From an uncultured virus (IMG/VR IMGVR_UViG_3300023205_000110) (lineage: Duplodnaviria; Heunggongvirae; Uroviricota; Caudoviricetes; Crassvirales): DNA of 33,573 nt. The stretch is taken from IMG/VR virus record IMGVR_UViG_3300023205_000110; one strand, given 5' to 3'. Positions 11,063-18,972 of the stretch are shown here, one piece after another (position 1 is the first letter of the stretch; every line of letters begins with the position of its first letter). The notes under the pieces were generated by a model. That model saw nothing but the letters and a program-made list of their open reading frames with translations. It was not told the origin of the DNA and searched no databases. The position numbers were made by a program, and so were the translations under genes.

Positions 11063-11069
11063 TGAACAT

Positions 11070-11099
11070 AGTGCTACTGACCTTCGGGTTGGTAGCACT
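11070..11099 (+). terminator. UUCG-capped hairpin after ssb
   Basis: AGTGCTACTGACC-TTCG-GGTTGGTAGCACT. No clear U-tract, so it may be a stabilising or processing hairpin instead. Confidence 0.55.
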
Positions 11100-13350: not shown

Positions 13351-13530
13351 ATGGAAAGAACTGATATTTATTTTGTTGAAGATGATACATATTTCAATAA
13401 TAATGTTGAAGGTGTTGAAATTCATGCAGAATGCCTAAGTCAAGATTTTGACGATATTGCTTGGGAACCAATAGTTAACGATAGTCCTATTGTTGACCCT
13501 GAAAATGATGTTTTTGGTTATTATGATTAA
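13351..13530 (+). CDS. Small, very acidic protein (59 aa)
   Basis: Read manually as MERTDIYFVEDDTYFNNNVEGVEIHAECLSQDFDDIAWEPIVNDSPIVDPENDVFGYYD. Ends 12 nt before the next gene. Confidence 0.7.
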   Translation: MERTDIYFVEDDTYFNNNVEGVEIHAECLSQDFDDIAWEPIVNDSPIVDPENDVFGYYD

Positions 13531-13542
13531 ATAAATAAAATT

Positions 13543-14115
13543 ATGGAAAATATTAATATTAAAGTTATTCTTGATGAAGTTTTTGGTAAATCTTGTGATA
13601 GTATTACTTGTGATACCTGTAAATATAAAGAAGATTGTAATCTTCTTAATAAATTCATTAATGATATTAAAGATAAAGGTTTATCTCCAGACCAATATGT
13701 TAGAGGTTTAGCTTTATTTGTATATGTTCTTAAAGAACAAAAATATATTAATGATTTTGGTAAAACTCAAGAAGATATTATTAAACTTGTTACTGAAGAT
13801 GGATTTGAACTTGATTGGCTTATTAATCGTTGGGATAGTATAATTGAAGATAAAGATATTCTTAAACCTATTATTGCTGTTTTTCCTAAATATGCTAAAG
13901 ATATGATTATTAATATTGTTGAAGCTAATACTAAAATTAATCATTTTATAAGTCAACATATTGTTGATAGTTCTTATAAAGAACGTAATGAAATTATTAA
14001 AATGGTTAATCAATCTGTTGATAATAATAAACAAGAGAATAAGTTTAAGAATGTTAGTGATGATGAAATTTATGCTGAACTTAAACGTAGAAAAGCAAAT
14101 AAATCTGCTAAATAA
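13543..14115 (+). CDS. Hypothetical protein with an N-terminal Cys cluster
   Basis: 190 aa containing CDSITCDTCKYKEDC. Confidence 0.8.
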   Translation: MENINIKVILDEVFGKSCDSITCDTCKYKEDCNLLNKFINDIKDKGLSPDQYVRGLALFVYVLKEQKYINDFGKTQEDIIKLVTEDGFELDWLINRWDSIIEDKDILKPIIAVFPKYAKDMIINIVEANTKINHFISQHIVDSSYKERNEIIKMVNQSVDNNKQENKFKNVSDDEIYAELKRRKANKSAK

Positions 14116-14457
14116 TCCCACATAATTTTGATTGTATTTCTAACACTATTGTCTGTGAAGATAATAGTATTATTTCACTTGCTGATGATGGAGGAATTGA
14201 ACTCCGAAACTATGATATTGTTATTATCCGTTTTAATTTCTAATTGTAACTTTTGTAATAGTACGGTCTGTGAAGATAGTGCTATTAATATTTATCATAG
14301 TCCAAGTGTTATATGTCATATTTGATTTGGTGTTAATAATGTTATTATTGATTGTGAAATTAGTAATAACAATGTCTGTGTCAAACATTTCGTTTTATAT
14401 GATTTCGTATTTGTAGTTTTGCCTAGCATTGTCTGTGAAGATAGTGCTAGGCTTTTT
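14116..14457 (+). ncRNA. Structured RNA array: four GUGA-tetraloop hairpins with U-rich spacers
   Basis: Hairpins at 14145-14168, 14256-14287, 14340-14371 and 14421-14452. Stems differ in sequence but keep pairing, with G-U wobbles on the + strand. The last is followed by TTTTT. Confidence 0.75.
14176..14308 (+). ncRNA. Type I hammerhead ribozyme
   Basis: Stem I CACUUG/CAAGUG, core CUGAUGA plus one extra U, stem II GGAG/CUCC, GAAA, stem III CUAUGAUA/UAUCAUAG, GUC cleavage triplet at 14300-14302. Confidence 0.85.
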
Positions 14458-14493
14458 AGTATGTATATTATTAACTTTAAATATATAATTAAA

Positions 14494-14856
14494 ATGGATA
14501 ATTATGATTCTTTTATTTTTGATGGTCTATTAGATAGATACATTGAAGAACAAGCTAAGTTTAAAAAAGGACAAGTAGTTTATATGGAATATACTTATCA
14601 ATATCATAATCAAACTAAGCTTGGTGTTTGTGTTGGTATTGTAACCGAAGTTGGAATTACTAAAATCGAACGTACAGTAGGTAATAATAAATATATTAAT
14701 TATCCTATTGTATATACTGTAACTCATGCTAAAGGTGTTAGTCGTTGTGTTAGTGAATGTAAACTTGGTTCTGTATCTGAACATATTCTTAAAGAACGTC
14801 TTAAACGTGATGGTAAGAATAATGAACAAAATGCAGAGCCTACTAGTAATGACTAA
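14494..14856 (+). CDS. Hypothetical protein (SH3/KOW-like pattern)
   Basis: Likely start is ATG 14494 (MDNYDSF). Contains KFKKGQVVYM...GIVTEV. Confidence 0.75.
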   Translation: MDNYDSFIFDGLLDRYIEEQAKFKKGQVVYMEYTYQYHNQTKLGVCVGIVTEVGITKIERTVGNNKYINYPIVYTVTHAKGVSRCVSECKLGSVSEHILKERLKRDGKNNEQNAEPTSND

Positions 14857-14880
14857 CTATTTATGTTCATAATACATTCA

Positions 14881-14973
14881 TAGATACGGTTCTTTTGCTC
14901 TCTGTTGAATTTTCATATATAATCTGATTAATCTATCACGATTAATATTGAGTTCAATACAGGGCAAAAGAAC
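14881..14973 (+). repeat. Intergenic element copy 1 (long hairpin with core TGATTAATCTATCACGAT)
   Basis: Arms GTTCTTTTGC (14889) / GCAAAAGAAC (ending 14973). The core recurs at 29636-29653. Confidence 0.7.
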
Positions 14974-15015
14974 TAGCTAATAAATGTTAAACTAAAAATT
15001 TAATACAGTTTTATT

Positions 15016-15588
15016 ATGAATTATATTACTTATAAACAAATTGATGGTACTATTACATCTGGATTTAAAGTTAAACTTTATGATATAGTTACTTTGAATA
15101 CTGGCTATTGGAAAGATAAACTTGCTATTGTTCTATATATTAATGAGGATAAAAAACAAATTAAAGTTCGTATTATTGAATGTGGTATGAACTTAACTCT
15201 TAAAGTTAAAGATGTTCAATTTGTTAATCATAATAATAGAACTGCTGCTCGTTCTTATATTGATTTATGTAATAAACTATCTAAAACCTTTCGTGATAAA
15301 TATACTGATAAACAGTATATAAAAGATAATTGGTTTACTGATAAGTTTATTATTAATGATATAACTGCTGATACTATTGCTAAAGGTATTGGTCAATATA
15401 TTACTAATACTGATAGTGATAGATATTCTGTTAGTGCTATTATGTGGCTTAGTGATATTAAAGATTATATAGATGCTTTACTTAAATATGGTGATTTTGA
15501 TTTTGTTGCTAAAGCATTTAAAATTTATAATATTACTGATACTAGATTTGAACTTATTCGTAAACTTTATCATTATTTCTATGATTGA
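15016..15588 (+). CDS. Hypothetical protein with a KOW-like N-terminal domain
   Basis: YDIVTLNTGYWKDKLAIVLYINEDKKQIKV fits the KOW pattern. Confidence 0.7.
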   Translation: MNYITYKQIDGTITSGFKVKLYDIVTLNTGYWKDKLAIVLYINEDKKQIKVRIIECGMNLTLKVKDVQFVNHNNRTAARSYIDLCNKLSKTFRDKYTDKQYIKDNWFTDKFIINDITADTIAKGIGQYITNTDSDRYSVSAIMWLSDIKDYIDALLKYGDFDFVAKAFKIYNITDTRFELIRKLYHYFYD

Positions 15589-18428: not shown

Positions 18429-18972
18429 AACTGTTGACGAATATATTGATTGTGCTAGATGTCCAAATCGTATATTTAATACAGGTAAATATATACAAGG
18501 TGGTAGAGGAAGTATTCATGGAGATGTTGTTTTCCTATTTCCTAGGGGTGATAGAAATTATTGTGAAGGTTATCAATTATTTACTGATATTGGTAATCTT
18601 TATGATGAATATTCTGGACGTAATAATACTGAAGATGTGTATATGACTTATAGTATTAAATGTGCTTGTTCTAATAATTATAATACATATCTTACCGCTA
18701 TTGATAAATGTCGTAATATTCTATGGAAAGAATTAGCTAGAATTAATTATAAGTATCTATTTATATTTGGTGATGCTTATCGTAGTATTAGTGATAATCC
18801 AATTCCTAGATTTATGGCTACTGGTGGTAAGTATATATTTAATAATTATTCTCCTCTTATTAAATTTAAAGATAATAATCTTTATCATGTATTTAAACAA
18901 CGTTTTGCTGATGATGTTAATTGGGTTACTAAAAATAGAAATAATTATGGATTAAATTATATAAATGATTAA
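18418..18972 (+). CDS. Uracil-DNA glycosylase-like protein (family 4 fold, divergent)
   Basis: CARC, GRGSIHGDVVFL, VYMTYSIKC, C..ILWKEL and YLFIFG motifs, but no GEAPG catalytic motif. Confidence 0.65.
   Translation: MASKTVDEYIDCARCPNRIFNTGKYIQGGRGSIHGDVVFLFPRGDRNYCEGYQLFTDIGNLYDEYSGRNNTEDVYMTYSIKCACSNNYNTYLTAIDKCRNILWKELARINYKYLFIFGDAYRSISDNPIPRFMATGGKYIFNNYSPLIKFKDNNLYHVFKQRFADDVNWVTKNRNNYGLNYIND

What the first reader, a model, noticed from the sequence alone, without database searches (positions are those of the whole stretch)
14116..14457. Array of four spacer-plus-GUGA-hairpin units: candidate ribozyme-processed antisense RNA system
Seen: four hairpins share a U-GUGA-A cap (three read GUCUGUGAAGAUA) with different but paired stems. 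G-U wobbles occur on the + strand, which points to RNA-level selection. The last hairpin ends in a U-tract. About 20-32 nt before each hairpin is CAU (14121, 14317, 14386) or CGU (14229) followed by U-rich sequence. Their reverse complements read like translation starts: GAAATACAATCAAAATT-ATG-TGG, ACACCAAATCAAAT-ATG-ACA, ATCATATAAAACGAA-ATG-TTT. Established: Bacteroidota mostly use A-rich leaders without Shine-Dalgarno sequences. Inference: a compact guide-like array of sRNAs with a constant hairpin handle and variable spacers that block start codons of host, competitor or phage mRNAs, matured in part by the embedded hammerhead. A protein-sponge RNA is an alternative.
Basis: partly seen in the sequence, partly recalled or inferred. 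Interest (0 to 1): 0.88.

Follow-up and report, generated by a model that had tools for sequence, protein, structure and literature searches.

The report
crAssphage hammerhead ribozyme with tetraloop hairpins
The four look-alike hairpins are real, but they surround a self-cutting hammerhead ribozyme and end in a transcription terminator, a set conserved across crAss-like gut phages, so they most likely shape and protect RNA ends and are not a set of antisense guides.

Summary
The window is prototypical crAssphage (Carjivirus communis). The finding lies in the gp08/gp09 intergenic gap.

**Observation.** All four hairpins are real (14141-14172, 14256-14287, 14336-14375, 14421-14452). Each is capped by a GNRA tetraloop (GUGA) on a U-A closing pair. 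They are conserved with compensatory changes and occur nowhere else in the window on either strand.

**What is there.** The hairpins decorate a type-I hammerhead ribozyme that Rfam misses:
- Stem I: 14176-81 with 14303-08.
- Core: CUGAUGA plus one extra U.
- Stem II: 14190-14205.
- Stem III: 14209-17 with 14293-14301.
- Predicted cut: after C14302.

Hairpin 1 sits 3 nt before stem I. Hairpin 2 is an insert inside stem III. Hairpin 4 is the intrinsic terminator.

**Conservation.** The same module (GNRA hairpin, hammerhead, spacer, GNRA-capped terminator) recurs in other Intestiviridae, with all three stems covarying. It was found in 31 of 74 sampled loci, with 0 hits on the antisense strand or in controls.

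**Antisense reading.** It is not supported. The spacers are the least conserved parts. The CAU triplets are at chance frequency and are not conserved. Complementarity to the phage's own 88 start regions is not enriched.

**Best reading.** This is an RNA-end-defining (processing, stabilising and terminating) module. A trans-acting small RNA released by the ribozyme is not excluded.

The parts
13543..14115 (+). gp08 CDS (hypothetical protein); upstream cistron whose 3' UTR holds the module
   Evidence: ORF list; annotation of BK010471.1; no Pfam/PHROG family
14141..14172 (+). Hairpin 1: 12-14 bp stem with a GUGA tetraloop. This is the 'guard' hairpin, 3 nt upstream of ribozyme stem I.
   Evidence: Hairpin scan. 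Two stem pairs show double compensatory changes. An equivalent hairpin lies 3-21 nt upstream of the ribozyme in 27 of 30 evaluable loci.
14176..14181 (+). Hammerhead stem I, 5' strand
   Evidence: RNAalifold. Pairs with 14303-14308. One strain shows a C-G to U-A double change. Six different stem I sequences occur across lineages.
14182..14189 (+). Hammerhead core box CUGAUGA (C3-A9) plus one inserted U before stem II
   Evidence: Invariant in 15 of 15 strains. The same 8-mer occurs in 10 of 12 distinct ribozyme signatures.
14190..14205 (+). Hammerhead stem II (4 bp) with an 8-nt loop II
   Evidence: Stem II covaries between genera. Loop II is nearly the same in Carjivirus, Delmidovirus and L064.
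14206..14208 (+). Hammerhead core G12-A13-A14
14209..14217 (+). Hammerhead stem III, 5' strand (begins with A15.1)
   Evidence: Pairs with 14293-14301. G-C changes to A-U in 6 of 15 strains. A15.1-U16.1 is kept in 12 of 12 signatures.
14218..14292 (+). 75-nt insert at the tip of stem III; contains hairpin 2
   Evidence: The insert length is 3 nt in Delmidovirus, 35-37 nt in Rudgehvirus and crAss002, and 68-77 nt in Carjivirus.
14256..14287 (+). Hairpin 2: GUGA tetraloop hairpin inside the stem III insert
   Evidence: three stem positions vary on one side only, between standard pairs
14293..14302 (+). Hammerhead stem III 3' strand, then C17. Predicted self-cleavage falls between 14302 and 14303.
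14303..14308 (+). Hammerhead stem I, 3' strand; would be the 5'-OH end of the downstream product
14336..14375 (+). Hairpin 3: GUGA tetraloop hairpin. Its two cap pairs are changed in a compensatory way relative to hairpins 1, 2 and 4.
14421..14457 (+). Hairpin 4 plus U-tract: intrinsic terminator with a GUGA cap
   Evidence: Terminators with near-identical arms follow the ribozyme in relatives.
14458..14493 (+). Almost invariant segment between the terminator and the gp09 ATG; candidate promoter or leader of the next unit
   Evidence: pi 0.023; alignment; similar AT-rich motif in relatives
14494..14856 (+). gp09 CDS (hypothetical protein, restricted to the Carjivirus lineage)
   Evidence: no family; AlphaFold model of low confidence

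Best explanation
**What it is.** The region is one structured stretch of + strand RNA at the end of the first rightward gene block of crAssphage (gp88 and gp01 to gp08). It is built around a type-I hammerhead ribozyme.

**How the parts are arranged.**
- Transcription runs from gp08 through hairpin 1 into the ribozyme, which folds.
- Stem I has 6 bp and stem II has 4 bp.
- Stem III has 9 bp and carries hairpin 2 at its tip.
- The ribozyme cuts itself after C14302.
- The transcript ends about 155 nt further on, at hairpin 4, a GUGA-capped intrinsic terminator.

**What the hairpins are.** The four look-alike hairpins are GNRA-tetraloop hairpins. These are the standard hairpin type of these phages' sense-strand RNAs. 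They act as structural and stability elements:
- Hairpin 1 is a conserved guard hairpin just 5' of the ribozyme. It insulates or extends stem I. It leaves the upstream mRNA with a nuclease-resistant 3' structure.
- Hairpin 2 closes the stem III insert.
- Hairpins 3 and 4 structure and terminate the short downstream product, which has a 5'-OH end.

**Net effect.** RNA ends are defined and protected at the boundary between two transcription units. tRNA genes appear to play a similar punctuating role at the equivalent place in relatives that lack the ribozyme.

**Shown.** The anatomy, its conservation and covariation, and the strand.

**Inferred.** Actual cleavage, and the protective or punctuating role.
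For: **Ribozyme in the window**
- RNAalifold on 15 strains recovers the three-way junction with every core nucleotide.
- 71 pairs are 98.6% standard, with double changes in stems I and III.
- My own descriptor finds it in the 97-kb genome with stems of 6, 4 and 9 bp. It gives one further minimal-stem hit on that strand, 0 hits on the other strand and 0 in reversed sequence. It gives 3 hits in total across 20 shuffles.

**Ribozyme in relatives**
- The same ribozyme, with different stems, is present in 4 of the 8 GenBank relatives fetched: two Delmidovirus, 'Rudgehvirus jaberico' and crAss002.
- It is present in 31 of 74 helicase-anchored IMG/VR loci. There were 38 sense hits, 0 antisense hits and 0 hits in reversed controls over 729 kb.
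- There are 12 distinct stem signatures. Each stem I position shows 3-4 pair types, A15.1-U16.1 is kept in 12 of 12, and N17 is C in 9, A in 2 and U in 1.
- A covariance model built from Delmidovirus alone hits the window at 25.9 bits, E 5e-4.
- An inserted nucleotide between A9 and G10.1 is a known natural variant, and U at that place raised the trans-cleaving rate (passage read in PMC3705267; PMC4209133).

**Hairpins**
- A GNRA hairpin ends 3-21 nt before the ribozyme in 27 of 30 evaluable loci. Only 1.7% of positions have one within 45 nt upstream.
- GUGA caps 92 of 321 sense-strand hairpins of at least 12 bp. The antisense strand has only 70 such hairpins in total.
- In ribozyme-less Whopevirus and cr271_1, the same hairpins sit 2-11 nt before tRNA genes.
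- In the 74-locus sample, ribozyme and tRNA never occur together: 31 loci with the ribozyme, 7 with tRNAs, 0 with both.
- Hairpin 4 is the only terminator-like site within 2.6 kb.
- Caps of this kind resemble terminators of Bacteroidales small RNAs, in sub-threshold Rfam alignments to BTnc201, BTnc231 and Prevotella-2.

**Constraint**
- Diversity is lowest in the ribozyme core (pi 0.015), intermediate in hairpins 2-4 (about 0.05) and highest in the spacers (0.14-0.26).
Against: - No Rfam hammerhead model reaches its threshold on the window or on the compact Delmidovirus form. The best match is RAGATH-1-hammerhead at 12.8 bits against a gathering score of 56.3.
- Cleavage has not been observed.
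- RNAfold's single-sequence minimum-energy fold pairs the stem I strands differently.
- A purely thermodynamic role does not explain why the 3-bp cap, the G-U wobble below it and a UAGU on the 3' arm are kept among paralogs and genera. That pattern would also fit a protein or RNA partner.
- It is unexplained why a terminator always follows the cut within about 80-170 nt, so that a short RNA is released.
- 36 of the 74 sampled loci have neither ribozyme nor tRNA within 4.5 kb, so the punctuation is not universal.
- The related loci are not independent samples.
Confidence: 0.55

Rival explanations
1. The ribozyme and the terminator together release a discrete small RNA with a 5'-OH end (14303 to about 14457, roughly 155 nt, holding hairpins 3 and 4). 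That RNA acts in trans, as a decoy or sponge for a host or phage RNA-binding protein, or as a base-pairing regulator.
For: A terminator follows the cut within about 80-170 nt in every lineage inspected. The cap, the G-U wobble and UAGU are conserved beyond what stability needs. A conserved 12-nt stretch lies just before hairpin 3 in all 15 strains.
Against: No primary-sequence motif apart from hairpin caps is shared by the released segments of 9 lineages. Its unpaired parts are the least conserved and are full of indels. The number of internal hairpins varies from 0 to 2. No target enrichment was seen on the phage's own start regions. No expression data of any use were obtained.
Confidence: 0.15
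2. The conserved hairpin caps are binding sites for one protein, as with lambda N on boxB or a translational repressor. That protein would couple antitermination, ribozyme folding or mRNA fate to the infection stage.
For: The U-A closed GNRA loop, a purine-rich 3' cap strand, a G-U wobble and UAGU are kept while the lower stems drift. Several copies lie in one 340-nt stretch. Hairpin 2 is placed where binding would stabilise stem III.
Against: No candidate protein was found. gp06 to gp10 have no family hits and the gp09 model is of low confidence. The same cap style occurs on ordinary terminators of Bacteroidales small RNAs and on a terminator-like hairpin after the portal gene. Cap sequences differ between genera.
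Confidence: 0.12
3. Hairpin 1, and perhaps hairpin 2, is part of the ribozyme's tertiary architecture. It would extend stem I by stacking, or dock its GNRA loop into a helix. This would replace the stem I / loop II contacts of other natural hammerheads.
For: The hairpin is tightly linked in position to the ribozyme, in 27 of 30 loci with gaps of 3-21 nt. Stem I is only 6 bp and open. Loop II is conserved across three genera. All three stem II variants contain a CU:AG step, which I recall as the helical receptor preferred by GUGA loops (recalled, not checked in a paper).
Against: The linker length varies from 3 to 21 nt. The hairpin is also present before a type-III version (L046) and before tRNAs. 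The CU:AG coincidence is weak, roughly 1 in 3 per lineage by my own estimate. This reading does not explain hairpins 3 and 4.
Confidence: 0.1
4. One reading: a guide-like array of small RNAs, with a constant hairpin handle and variable spacers antisense to the start codons of host, competitor or phage mRNAs.
For: C[AG]U triplets do lie 20-32 nt before each of the four hairpins. The spacers are U-rich and could pair with A-rich leaders. One spacer (14218-14255) gave -21.5 kcal/mol with the gp84 start region, matched by 3 of 60 shuffles.
Against: CAT is at chance frequency, 5 against 4.6 expected. Three of the four triplets are lost in 5-6 of 15 strains. Three of the four spacers are no better than shuffles, with 37-48 of 60 shuffles as good. 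The marginal spacer lies inside ribozyme stem III and carries indels. There is only one processing site for four 'units'. The repeats are not identical and the spacers are of unequal length. Relatives have different numbers of hairpins.
Confidence: 0.04
5. A DNA-level element: a replication origin, or single-strand hairpins recognised by a polymerase or primase.
For: It lies in the replication-gene block, is AT-rich, and holds repeated 13-mers and hairpins.
Against: G-U pairs at fixed positions would be C-A mismatches on the other strand. Hairpins of at least 12 bp number 321 on the sense strand against 70 on the antisense strand across 74 loci. A ribozyme with covarying stems occupies the centre. 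The repeat spacing is irregular (115, 85 and 80 nt).
Confidence: 0.02

Closest known systems
Type I hammerhead ribozyme (Rfam Hammerhead_1 and related models)
   Same: All core nucleotides are present. There are three helices at a three-way junction, A15.1-U16.1, and C at the cleavage site (a GUC triplet). Stem I is open-ended. The stems covary.
   Different: One U is inserted between A9 and G10.1. This is a known natural variant (passages in PMC3705267 and PMC4209133). A 75-nt insert with its own hairpin sits in stem III. A separate GNRA hairpin always lies just upstream. The stems are AU-rich. No Rfam hammerhead model reaches threshold.
Stable-tetraloop intercistronic hairpins of phage T4 (UUCG type), and 3' stabiliser hairpins left by RNase III processing in T7 (both recalled, not read here)
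   Same: Short, very stable tetraloop hairpins placed between cistrons on the sense strand, next to processing or termination sites.
   Different: Here the loop is GNRA (GUGA). Four of the five copies in the genome cluster in one gap. The cut is made by a ribozyme or at tRNAs, not by RNase III.
Intrinsic terminators of Bacteroidales small RNAs (Rfam BTnc201, BTnc231, Prevotella-2)
   Same: The hairpin cap has pyrimidines, then GUGA, then purines, followed by a U-tract. Sub-threshold alignments cover hairpin 4 and a crAss002 hairpin.
   Different: The scores are far below gathering (23.5 against 105; 13.3 against 80.4; 15.6 against 72.1). Only the terminal hairpin matches. Hairpins 1-3 have no U-tract.
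Lambda boxB / N antitermination hairpins (recalled)
   Same: A U-A closed GNRA-type loop on a short stem, present in several copies in early transcripts.
   Different: These have a four-base, not a five-base, loop and much longer stems. No N-like protein or nut-site context was identified.
tRNA punctuation, and ribozymes next to tRNAs in gut phages (HDV-like 'theta' ribozymes; recalled, not read here)
   Same: Processing elements embedded in polycistronic phage transcripts. In relatives, tRNAs occupy the equivalent place and are flanked by the same hairpin type.
   Different: This is a hammerhead, not an HDV-like ribozyme. No tRNA lies in this window. Ribozyme and tRNA were never found together in the 74 loci.
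CRISPR-like repeat-spacer arrays and phage solitary repeat units (recalled)
   Same: Repeated hairpins separated by variable sequence.
   Different: The lower stems differ between copies. The spacers are of unequal length and drift by point changes and indels. There is no cas context. One 'unit' is an internal part of a ribozyme.

Membership tests
Hammerhead ribozyme | Conserved core: C3 U4 G5 A6 N7 G8 A9, and G12 A13 A14 | tested here: met
   14182-14188 and 14206-14208. Invariant in 15 of 15 strains. One U is inserted after A9, in 10 of 12 signatures.
Hammerhead ribozyme | Three helices around the core, supported by covariation | tested here: met
   Stem I shows 3-4 pair types per position, stem II shows 3, and stem III varies beyond its first pair.
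Hammerhead ribozyme | A15.1-U16.1 pair, and a non-G nucleotide at the cleavage site | tested here: met
   A-U in 12 of 12 signatures. N17 is C in 9, A in 2 and U in 1, and never G. My descriptor required U16.1 and a non-G at position 17, so only A15.1 and the mix of bases at N17 are independent observations.
Hammerhead ribozyme | Score at or above the gathering threshold of a curated Rfam hammerhead model | tested here: not met
   No hit in the window at gathering or at E up to 10. Compact Delmidovirus form: only RAGATH-1-hammerhead, 12.8 against 56.3 bits. crAss002 form: none.
Hammerhead ribozyme | Site-specific self-cleavage giving 2',3'-cyclic phosphate and 5'-OH ends | not testable with these tools
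   Only assembled contigs of RNA libraries were available. They cannot show RNA ends.
GNRA tetraloop hairpin | Four-base loop G-N-R-A closing a regular helix | tested here: met
   GUGA in 4 of 4 hairpins. One strain has GCGA in hairpin 1, which is still GNRA.
Intrinsic (rho-independent) terminator | GC-containing stem followed directly by a U-tract | tested here: met
   Hairpin 4 only: 14 pairs, 6 of them G-C, then TTTTT. Hairpins 1-3 are not flagged and lack a U-tract, so the four are not stacked terminators.
   Spacer pi is 0.14-0.26 with indels. No motif is shared across 9 lineages. Three of four spacers are no better than shuffles against 88 start regions. Host targets were not tested.
   Only one predicted processing site (14302/14303) and one terminator for four hairpins. 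No read-level RNA data.
CRISPR-like array | Near-identical direct repeats with spacers of uniform length | tested here: not met
   Only the 13-nt cap is shared and the lower stems differ. Spacings are 115, about 85 and about 80 nt.

The most novel reading that the evidence does not exclude
crAss-like phages of the family Intestiviridae, the prototypical crAssphage included, carry a hammerhead module that I did not find annotated. A guard hairpin and the ribozyme cut the first rightward transcript a fixed short distance before its terminator. This releases a hairpin-rich small RNA with a 5'-OH end, which acts in trans on the host or on the phage's own gene-expression programme, as a protein decoy or a regulator. 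On this reading the ribozyme is an RNA-maturation device and does more than trim the mRNA.
Probability: 0.15. Interest if true: 0.8.

Novelty: new variant of a known kind. Interest (0 to 1): 0.55.

Why it matters
crAssphage is among the most abundant viruses of the human gut, has never been cultured, and its gene regulation is almost unknown.

- **A concrete RNA element.** A conserved self-cleaving ribozyme with companion hairpins sits at the boundary of its first rightward gene block. This is testable. It marks where transcripts are cut and ended.
- **Cultured relatives carry the same module.** crAss002 and 'Rudgehvirus jaberico' both have it, so experiments are possible now.
- **A gap in current models.** A hammerhead variant found in 31 of 74 sampled loci escapes the current Rfam models. 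The causes are the extra U, the stem III inserts and the AU-rich stems.
- **A possible general rule.** Ribozymes and tRNAs may serve as interchangeable punctuation in these phages, flanked by one hairpin type.

Tried and rejected
- **RNA libraries.** All 24 runs offered are kept as assembled contigs. Four were laid (X1, X10, X12, X13).
  - One contig of X1 bridges the predicted cut, and X13 covers the whole stretch.
  - X10 and X12 contigs break at 14103/14253 and at 14163/14164, not at the cut.
  - DNA carry-over cannot be excluded, so nothing can be concluded about cleavage, ends or expression.
- **Rfam.** No family at gathering in the window. Only chance-level matches at E up to 10.
- **gp09 relatives.** Searches with one protein and with a 10-sequence alignment both returned the same 21 close loci, so gp09 gave no distant comparisons.
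- **PHROGs and Pfam on gp06-gp10.** No significant family.
- **AlphaFold of gp09.** Mean pLDDT 60. The model was not searched further because it is unreliable.
- **Earlier findings of the scan.** Nothing returned.
- **MAFFT alignments of ribozymes across genera.** The 3' halves were misaligned because of the insert lengths. Cross-genus covariation was therefore counted from descriptor coordinates in a script.
- **Covariance model R1.** It finds the window copy but aligns only its 5' half (14176-14232), because of the 75-nt insert. Alignment A8 was not used for pair counts.
- **Anticodon-loop mimicry (a His GUG anticodon in a 7-nt loop).** Considered and dropped. That loop would need a non-pairing closing pair, whereas the 4-nt loop gives four more pairs.
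- **Coding potential of the gap.** Rejected. Indels of 1, 2, 5, 19 and about 22 nt occur among strains.
- **Bacteroides-type -7 boxes (TAnnTTTG) at 14123 and 14414.** Seen by eye but not conserved in the divergent strains.
Full report
**Context**

The window is the prototypical crAssphage, Carjivirus communis. Bases 13400-15100 match BK010471.1 3535-5244 at 97.5%. The finding lies in the 378-nt gap between gp08 (13543-14115) and gp09 (14494-14856). Both genes are on the + strand and both encode hypothetical proteins.

In the reference genome the + strand block starts at gp88 and runs through gp01-gp43. gp44-gp87 lie on the other strand. The gap therefore lies about 5.4 kb into the rightward block and 2.7 kb upstream of the helicase gene.

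**Observation check**

- A hairpin scan finds exactly four + strand hairpins with the shared cap: 14141-14172, 14256-14287, 14336-14375 and 14421-14452. None lies elsewhere in the window on either strand.
- Three hold the same 13-mer exactly. That call's shuffle control allows two mismatches and is weak on its own, since 15 of 100 shuffles gave at least three matches.
- The loop is the four-base GNRA tetraloop GUGA on a U-A closing pair.
- Hairpin 3 keeps the loop, the closing pair and a G-U wobble four pairs down. Its two pairs in between are exchanged in a compensatory way.
- The + strand RNA folds to -102.5 kcal/mol and the - strand to -70.2. Their z-scores are similar, at -5.4 and -5.9.
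- I aligned 15 sequences, out of the window plus 21 related IMG/VR loci held. In that alignment 98.6% of 1058 pair cells are standard pairs, against 32-55% when partners are slid by 1-3 columns. Four pairs show changes on both sides.
- Hairpin 4 with its TTTTT tail is the only terminator-like site between 13000 and 15600.
- Indels of 1, 2, 5, 19 and about 22 nt among strains show that the gap is not coding.

**What the hairpins surround**

RNAalifold on that alignment gave a three-way junction that is a type-I hammerhead (coordinates):

| Part | Coordinates |
|---|---|
| Stem I | 14176-14181 with 14303-14308 |
| CUGAUGA box plus one extra U | 14182-14189 |
| Stem II with an 8-nt loop | 14190-14205 |
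| GAA | 14206-14208 |
| Stem III | 14209-14217 with 14293-14301 |
| C17 | 14302 |

- The predicted cut falls between 14302 and 14303.
- Within the species, stem I shows one C-G to U-A exchange. Stem III shows a G-C to A-U exchange in 6 of 15 sequences.
- Hairpin 1 ends 3 nt before stem I.
- Hairpin 2 lies inside the 75-nt insert at the tip of stem III.
- Hairpins 3 and 4 lie in the downstream product.
- A descriptor I wrote (core boxes plus three helices) finds this site in the whole 97-kb genome, and one much weaker site.
- The same descriptor gives nothing on the other strand, nothing in the reversed sequence, and 3 hits in total across 20 shuffles.
- Rfam finds no hammerhead here at gathering, or at E up to 10.
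- An inserted nucleotide between A9 and G10.1 is a described natural variant. A U at that place raised the trans-cleaving rate 3-4-fold. I read this as a passage in PMC3705267, which cites De la Pena and Flores 2001. A passage in PMC4209133 reports a conserved nucleotide at that place in another hammerhead group.

**Relatives**

- I fetched 8 of the 33 GenBank records that hold a helicase relative. The same ribozyme type is present in 4 of the 8: two Delmidovirus, 'Rudgehvirus jaberico' and crAss002. It lies in the equivalent intergenic gap 1.6-2.8 kb upstream of the helicase gene.
- The stem I, II and III sequences differ between these lineages. The core and the extra U are the same.
- The stem III insert is 3 nt in Delmidovirus and 35-37 nt in Rudgehvirus and crAss002.
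- Each copy is preceded by one or two GUGA hairpins. Each is followed by more hairpins and a terminator, and then by an AT-rich stretch before the next gene.
- A helicase-anchored sample of 74 IMG/VR loci was taken from the best 80 of 472 relatives (729 kb). It gave 38 descriptor hits on the sense strand, 0 on the antisense strand and 0 in reversed controls.
- 31 of the 74 loci have a well-formed ribozyme. One of the 31, L104, is doubtful because its core differs and its helicase is distant.
- There are 12 distinct type-I signatures. Each stem I position has 3-4 pair types. A15.1-U16.1 is kept in 12 of 12. The cleavage-site base is C in 9, A in 2 and U in 1.
- One locus (L046) has the type-III topology.
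- A covariance model built from three Delmidovirus sequences alone finds 17 matches at E up to 0.01, all on the sense strand.
- The window's match scores 25.9 bits (E 5e-4), though the model aligns only its 5' half because of the insert.
- The compact Delmidovirus form still fails the Rfam hammerhead models. Its best match is RAGATH-1-hammerhead at 12.8 bits against 56.3.

**The hairpin family**

- In 27 of 30 evaluable ribozyme loci a GNRA hairpin ends 3-21 nt upstream of the ribozyme. The loop is GUGA in 26 and GCGA in 1. Only 1.7% of positions have such a hairpin within 45 nt upstream. The loci are related, so this shows conservation across about six stem lineages and is not an independent statistic.
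- Across the 74 loci, sense-strand hairpins of at least 12 bp with four-base loops number 321. Of these, 92 are GUGA, 13 GUAA and 11 GAAA. The antisense strand has 70 in total.
- Many hairpins share three pyrimidine-purine pairs under the loop, then a G-U wobble, and UAGU on the 3' arm.
- In the crAssphage genome the long GUGA hairpins number five. Four are here and one follows the portal gene on its coding strand.
- In relatives without the ribozyme, the same hairpins stand 2-11 nt before tRNA genes (Whopevirus, cr271_1) or singly between cistrons (cr8_1).
- In the 74 loci, 7 have tRNAs, 31 have the ribozyme, none has both, and 36 have neither.
- Sub-threshold Rfam alignments show the same cap style on terminators of the Bacteroidales small RNAs BTnc201, BTnc231 and Prevotella-2.

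**Tests of the antisense reading**

- Nucleotide diversity is lowest in the ribozyme core (0.015) and in the post-terminator segment (0.023).
- It is about 0.05 in hairpins 2-4 and 0.13 in hairpin 1, where changes are compensatory.
- It is 0.14-0.26 in the spacers, which also hold most of the indels. gp09 third codon positions give 0.10.
- CAT occurs 5 times against 4.6 expected. Three of the four named triplets are replaced or deleted in 5-6 of 15 strains.
- I folded each spacer against the -30 to +20 regions of all 88 annotated genes.
- Spacers 1, 3 and 4 were matched or beaten by 46, 48 and 37 of 60 dinucleotide shuffles.
- Spacer 2, which lies inside stem III, reached -21.5 kcal/mol with gp84 and was matched by 3 of 60 shuffles. 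That is not significant after four tests.
- The segments released downstream of the cut in nine lineages share no motif beyond the hairpin caps.
- Host targets were not tested, because the host is unknown.

**Mechanism**

Shown: an RNA-level, sense-strand structure made of a hammerhead with all catalytic nucleotides, a linked upstream GNRA hairpin, further GNRA hairpins and an intrinsic terminator. It is conserved with covariation across several genera.

Inferred:
- The transcript cuts itself after C14302.
- The upstream mRNA keeps hairpin 1 and the folded ribozyme as a protected 3' end.
- A product of about 155 nt with a 5'-OH end, carrying hairpins 3 and 4, is released at the terminator.
- The next unit starts from the invariant segment before gp09.

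I read the hairpins as end-defining and stabilising elements, and the whole as transcript punctuation. tRNAs fill that role in some relatives.

What this does not explain is the sequence conservation of the cap and of UAGU, or why a short RNA is always released. Those points keep three other readings open: a protein-binding role, a ribozyme-folding role for hairpin 1, and a trans-acting released RNA.

**Comparison and novelty**

- Hammerheads in phages, stable tetraloop hairpins and intrinsic terminators are all known kinds.
- Full-text searches gave no paper for 'crAssphage' with 'hammerhead'.
- Searches for 'crAss-like' with 'ribozyme', and for 'hammerhead ribozyme' with 'bacteriophage' and 'Bacteroides', listed no paper whose title or abstract start points to this element. 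In one review I read the passages that matched my search terms; the only ribozyme mention there concerned introns.
- A search on four terms, any two required, found one preprint (10.64898/2026.03.07.710320, passage read). It says that hatchet ribozymes are largely confined to Crassvirales.
- Papers outside the held library, and supplements, were not seen.
- I therefore file this as a new variant of a known kind.

**Limits**

- There are no read-level RNA data.
- Cleavage is untested.
- The related loci are not independent.
- My descriptor fixes the core boxes, so variants such as L040 are missed by it.

Noticed in passing
window 14888-14974 (+), gp09/gp10 gap: A long, nearly perfect extended hairpin of about 87 nt. 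The 159-nt gap folds to -41.4 kcal/mol, z -7.0. Part of it (14878-14942) is 81.5% identical to a stretch of an unrelated 'Bacteriophage sp.' record (MT835852.1).
   Followed up: partly
window 18908-18966 (+), end of the uracil-DNA glycosylase gene and start of the DNA polymerase gene: A second match to the hammerhead descriptor, weak, with minimal stems (4, 4 and 6 bp) and a U-A first pair in stem II. It lies inside coding sequence. It is probably chance, since shuffles give about 0.15 such hits per genome.
   Followed up: partly
window 14458-14493 (+): The segment between the terminator and the gp09 start codon is almost invariant (pi 0.023), although gp09 itself diverges to 76% identity. A similar AT-rich motif precedes the next gene in Delmidovirus, Rudgehvirus and crAss002. 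It is a candidate promoter or leader.
   Followed up: partly
L028 2871-2940 (Whopevirus ctbg_1, mouse): Rfam pistol ribozyme at 68 bits (gathering 34.5) in the early region of a relative that has no hammerhead within the 17.5 kb fetched.
   Followed up: no
L040 1781-1832 (IMG/VR locus): A hammerhead found only by the covariance model (42 bits). Its core box reads U at position 3 and A at position 8, in place of C3 and G8. These two positions pair in the active fold (recalled). It has no extra U.
   Followed up: partly
L046 about 2422-2500 (IMG/VR locus): The same gap holds a hammerhead with type-III topology (stem I closed, stems of 9, 4 and 9 bp). It is still flanked by GUGA hairpins on both sides.
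   Followed up: no
L033-L106 (74 loci): Hammerhead and tRNA genes were never found in the same 4.5-kb region upstream of the helicase gene: 31 loci with the hammerhead, 7 with tRNAs, 0 with both, 36 with neither.
   Followed up: partly
BK010471.1 86220-86253, - strand (outside the window): The only other long GUGA hairpin of the family in the crAssphage genome. It lies just after the portal gene on its coding strand and is followed by a U-rich tail.
   Followed up: no
L001 1211-1240 (about window 11065-11094): A 13-bp hairpin with a UUCG tetraloop, just past the end of the ssb-like gene gp02, inside the annotated gp03.
   Followed up: no
window 14104-14252, run X10: In one gut RNA library the contig ending at 14103 has depth 711 and the contig starting at 14253 has depth 95. 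Contig depths cannot be read as expression, so this is only a pointer for read-level work.
   Followed up: no
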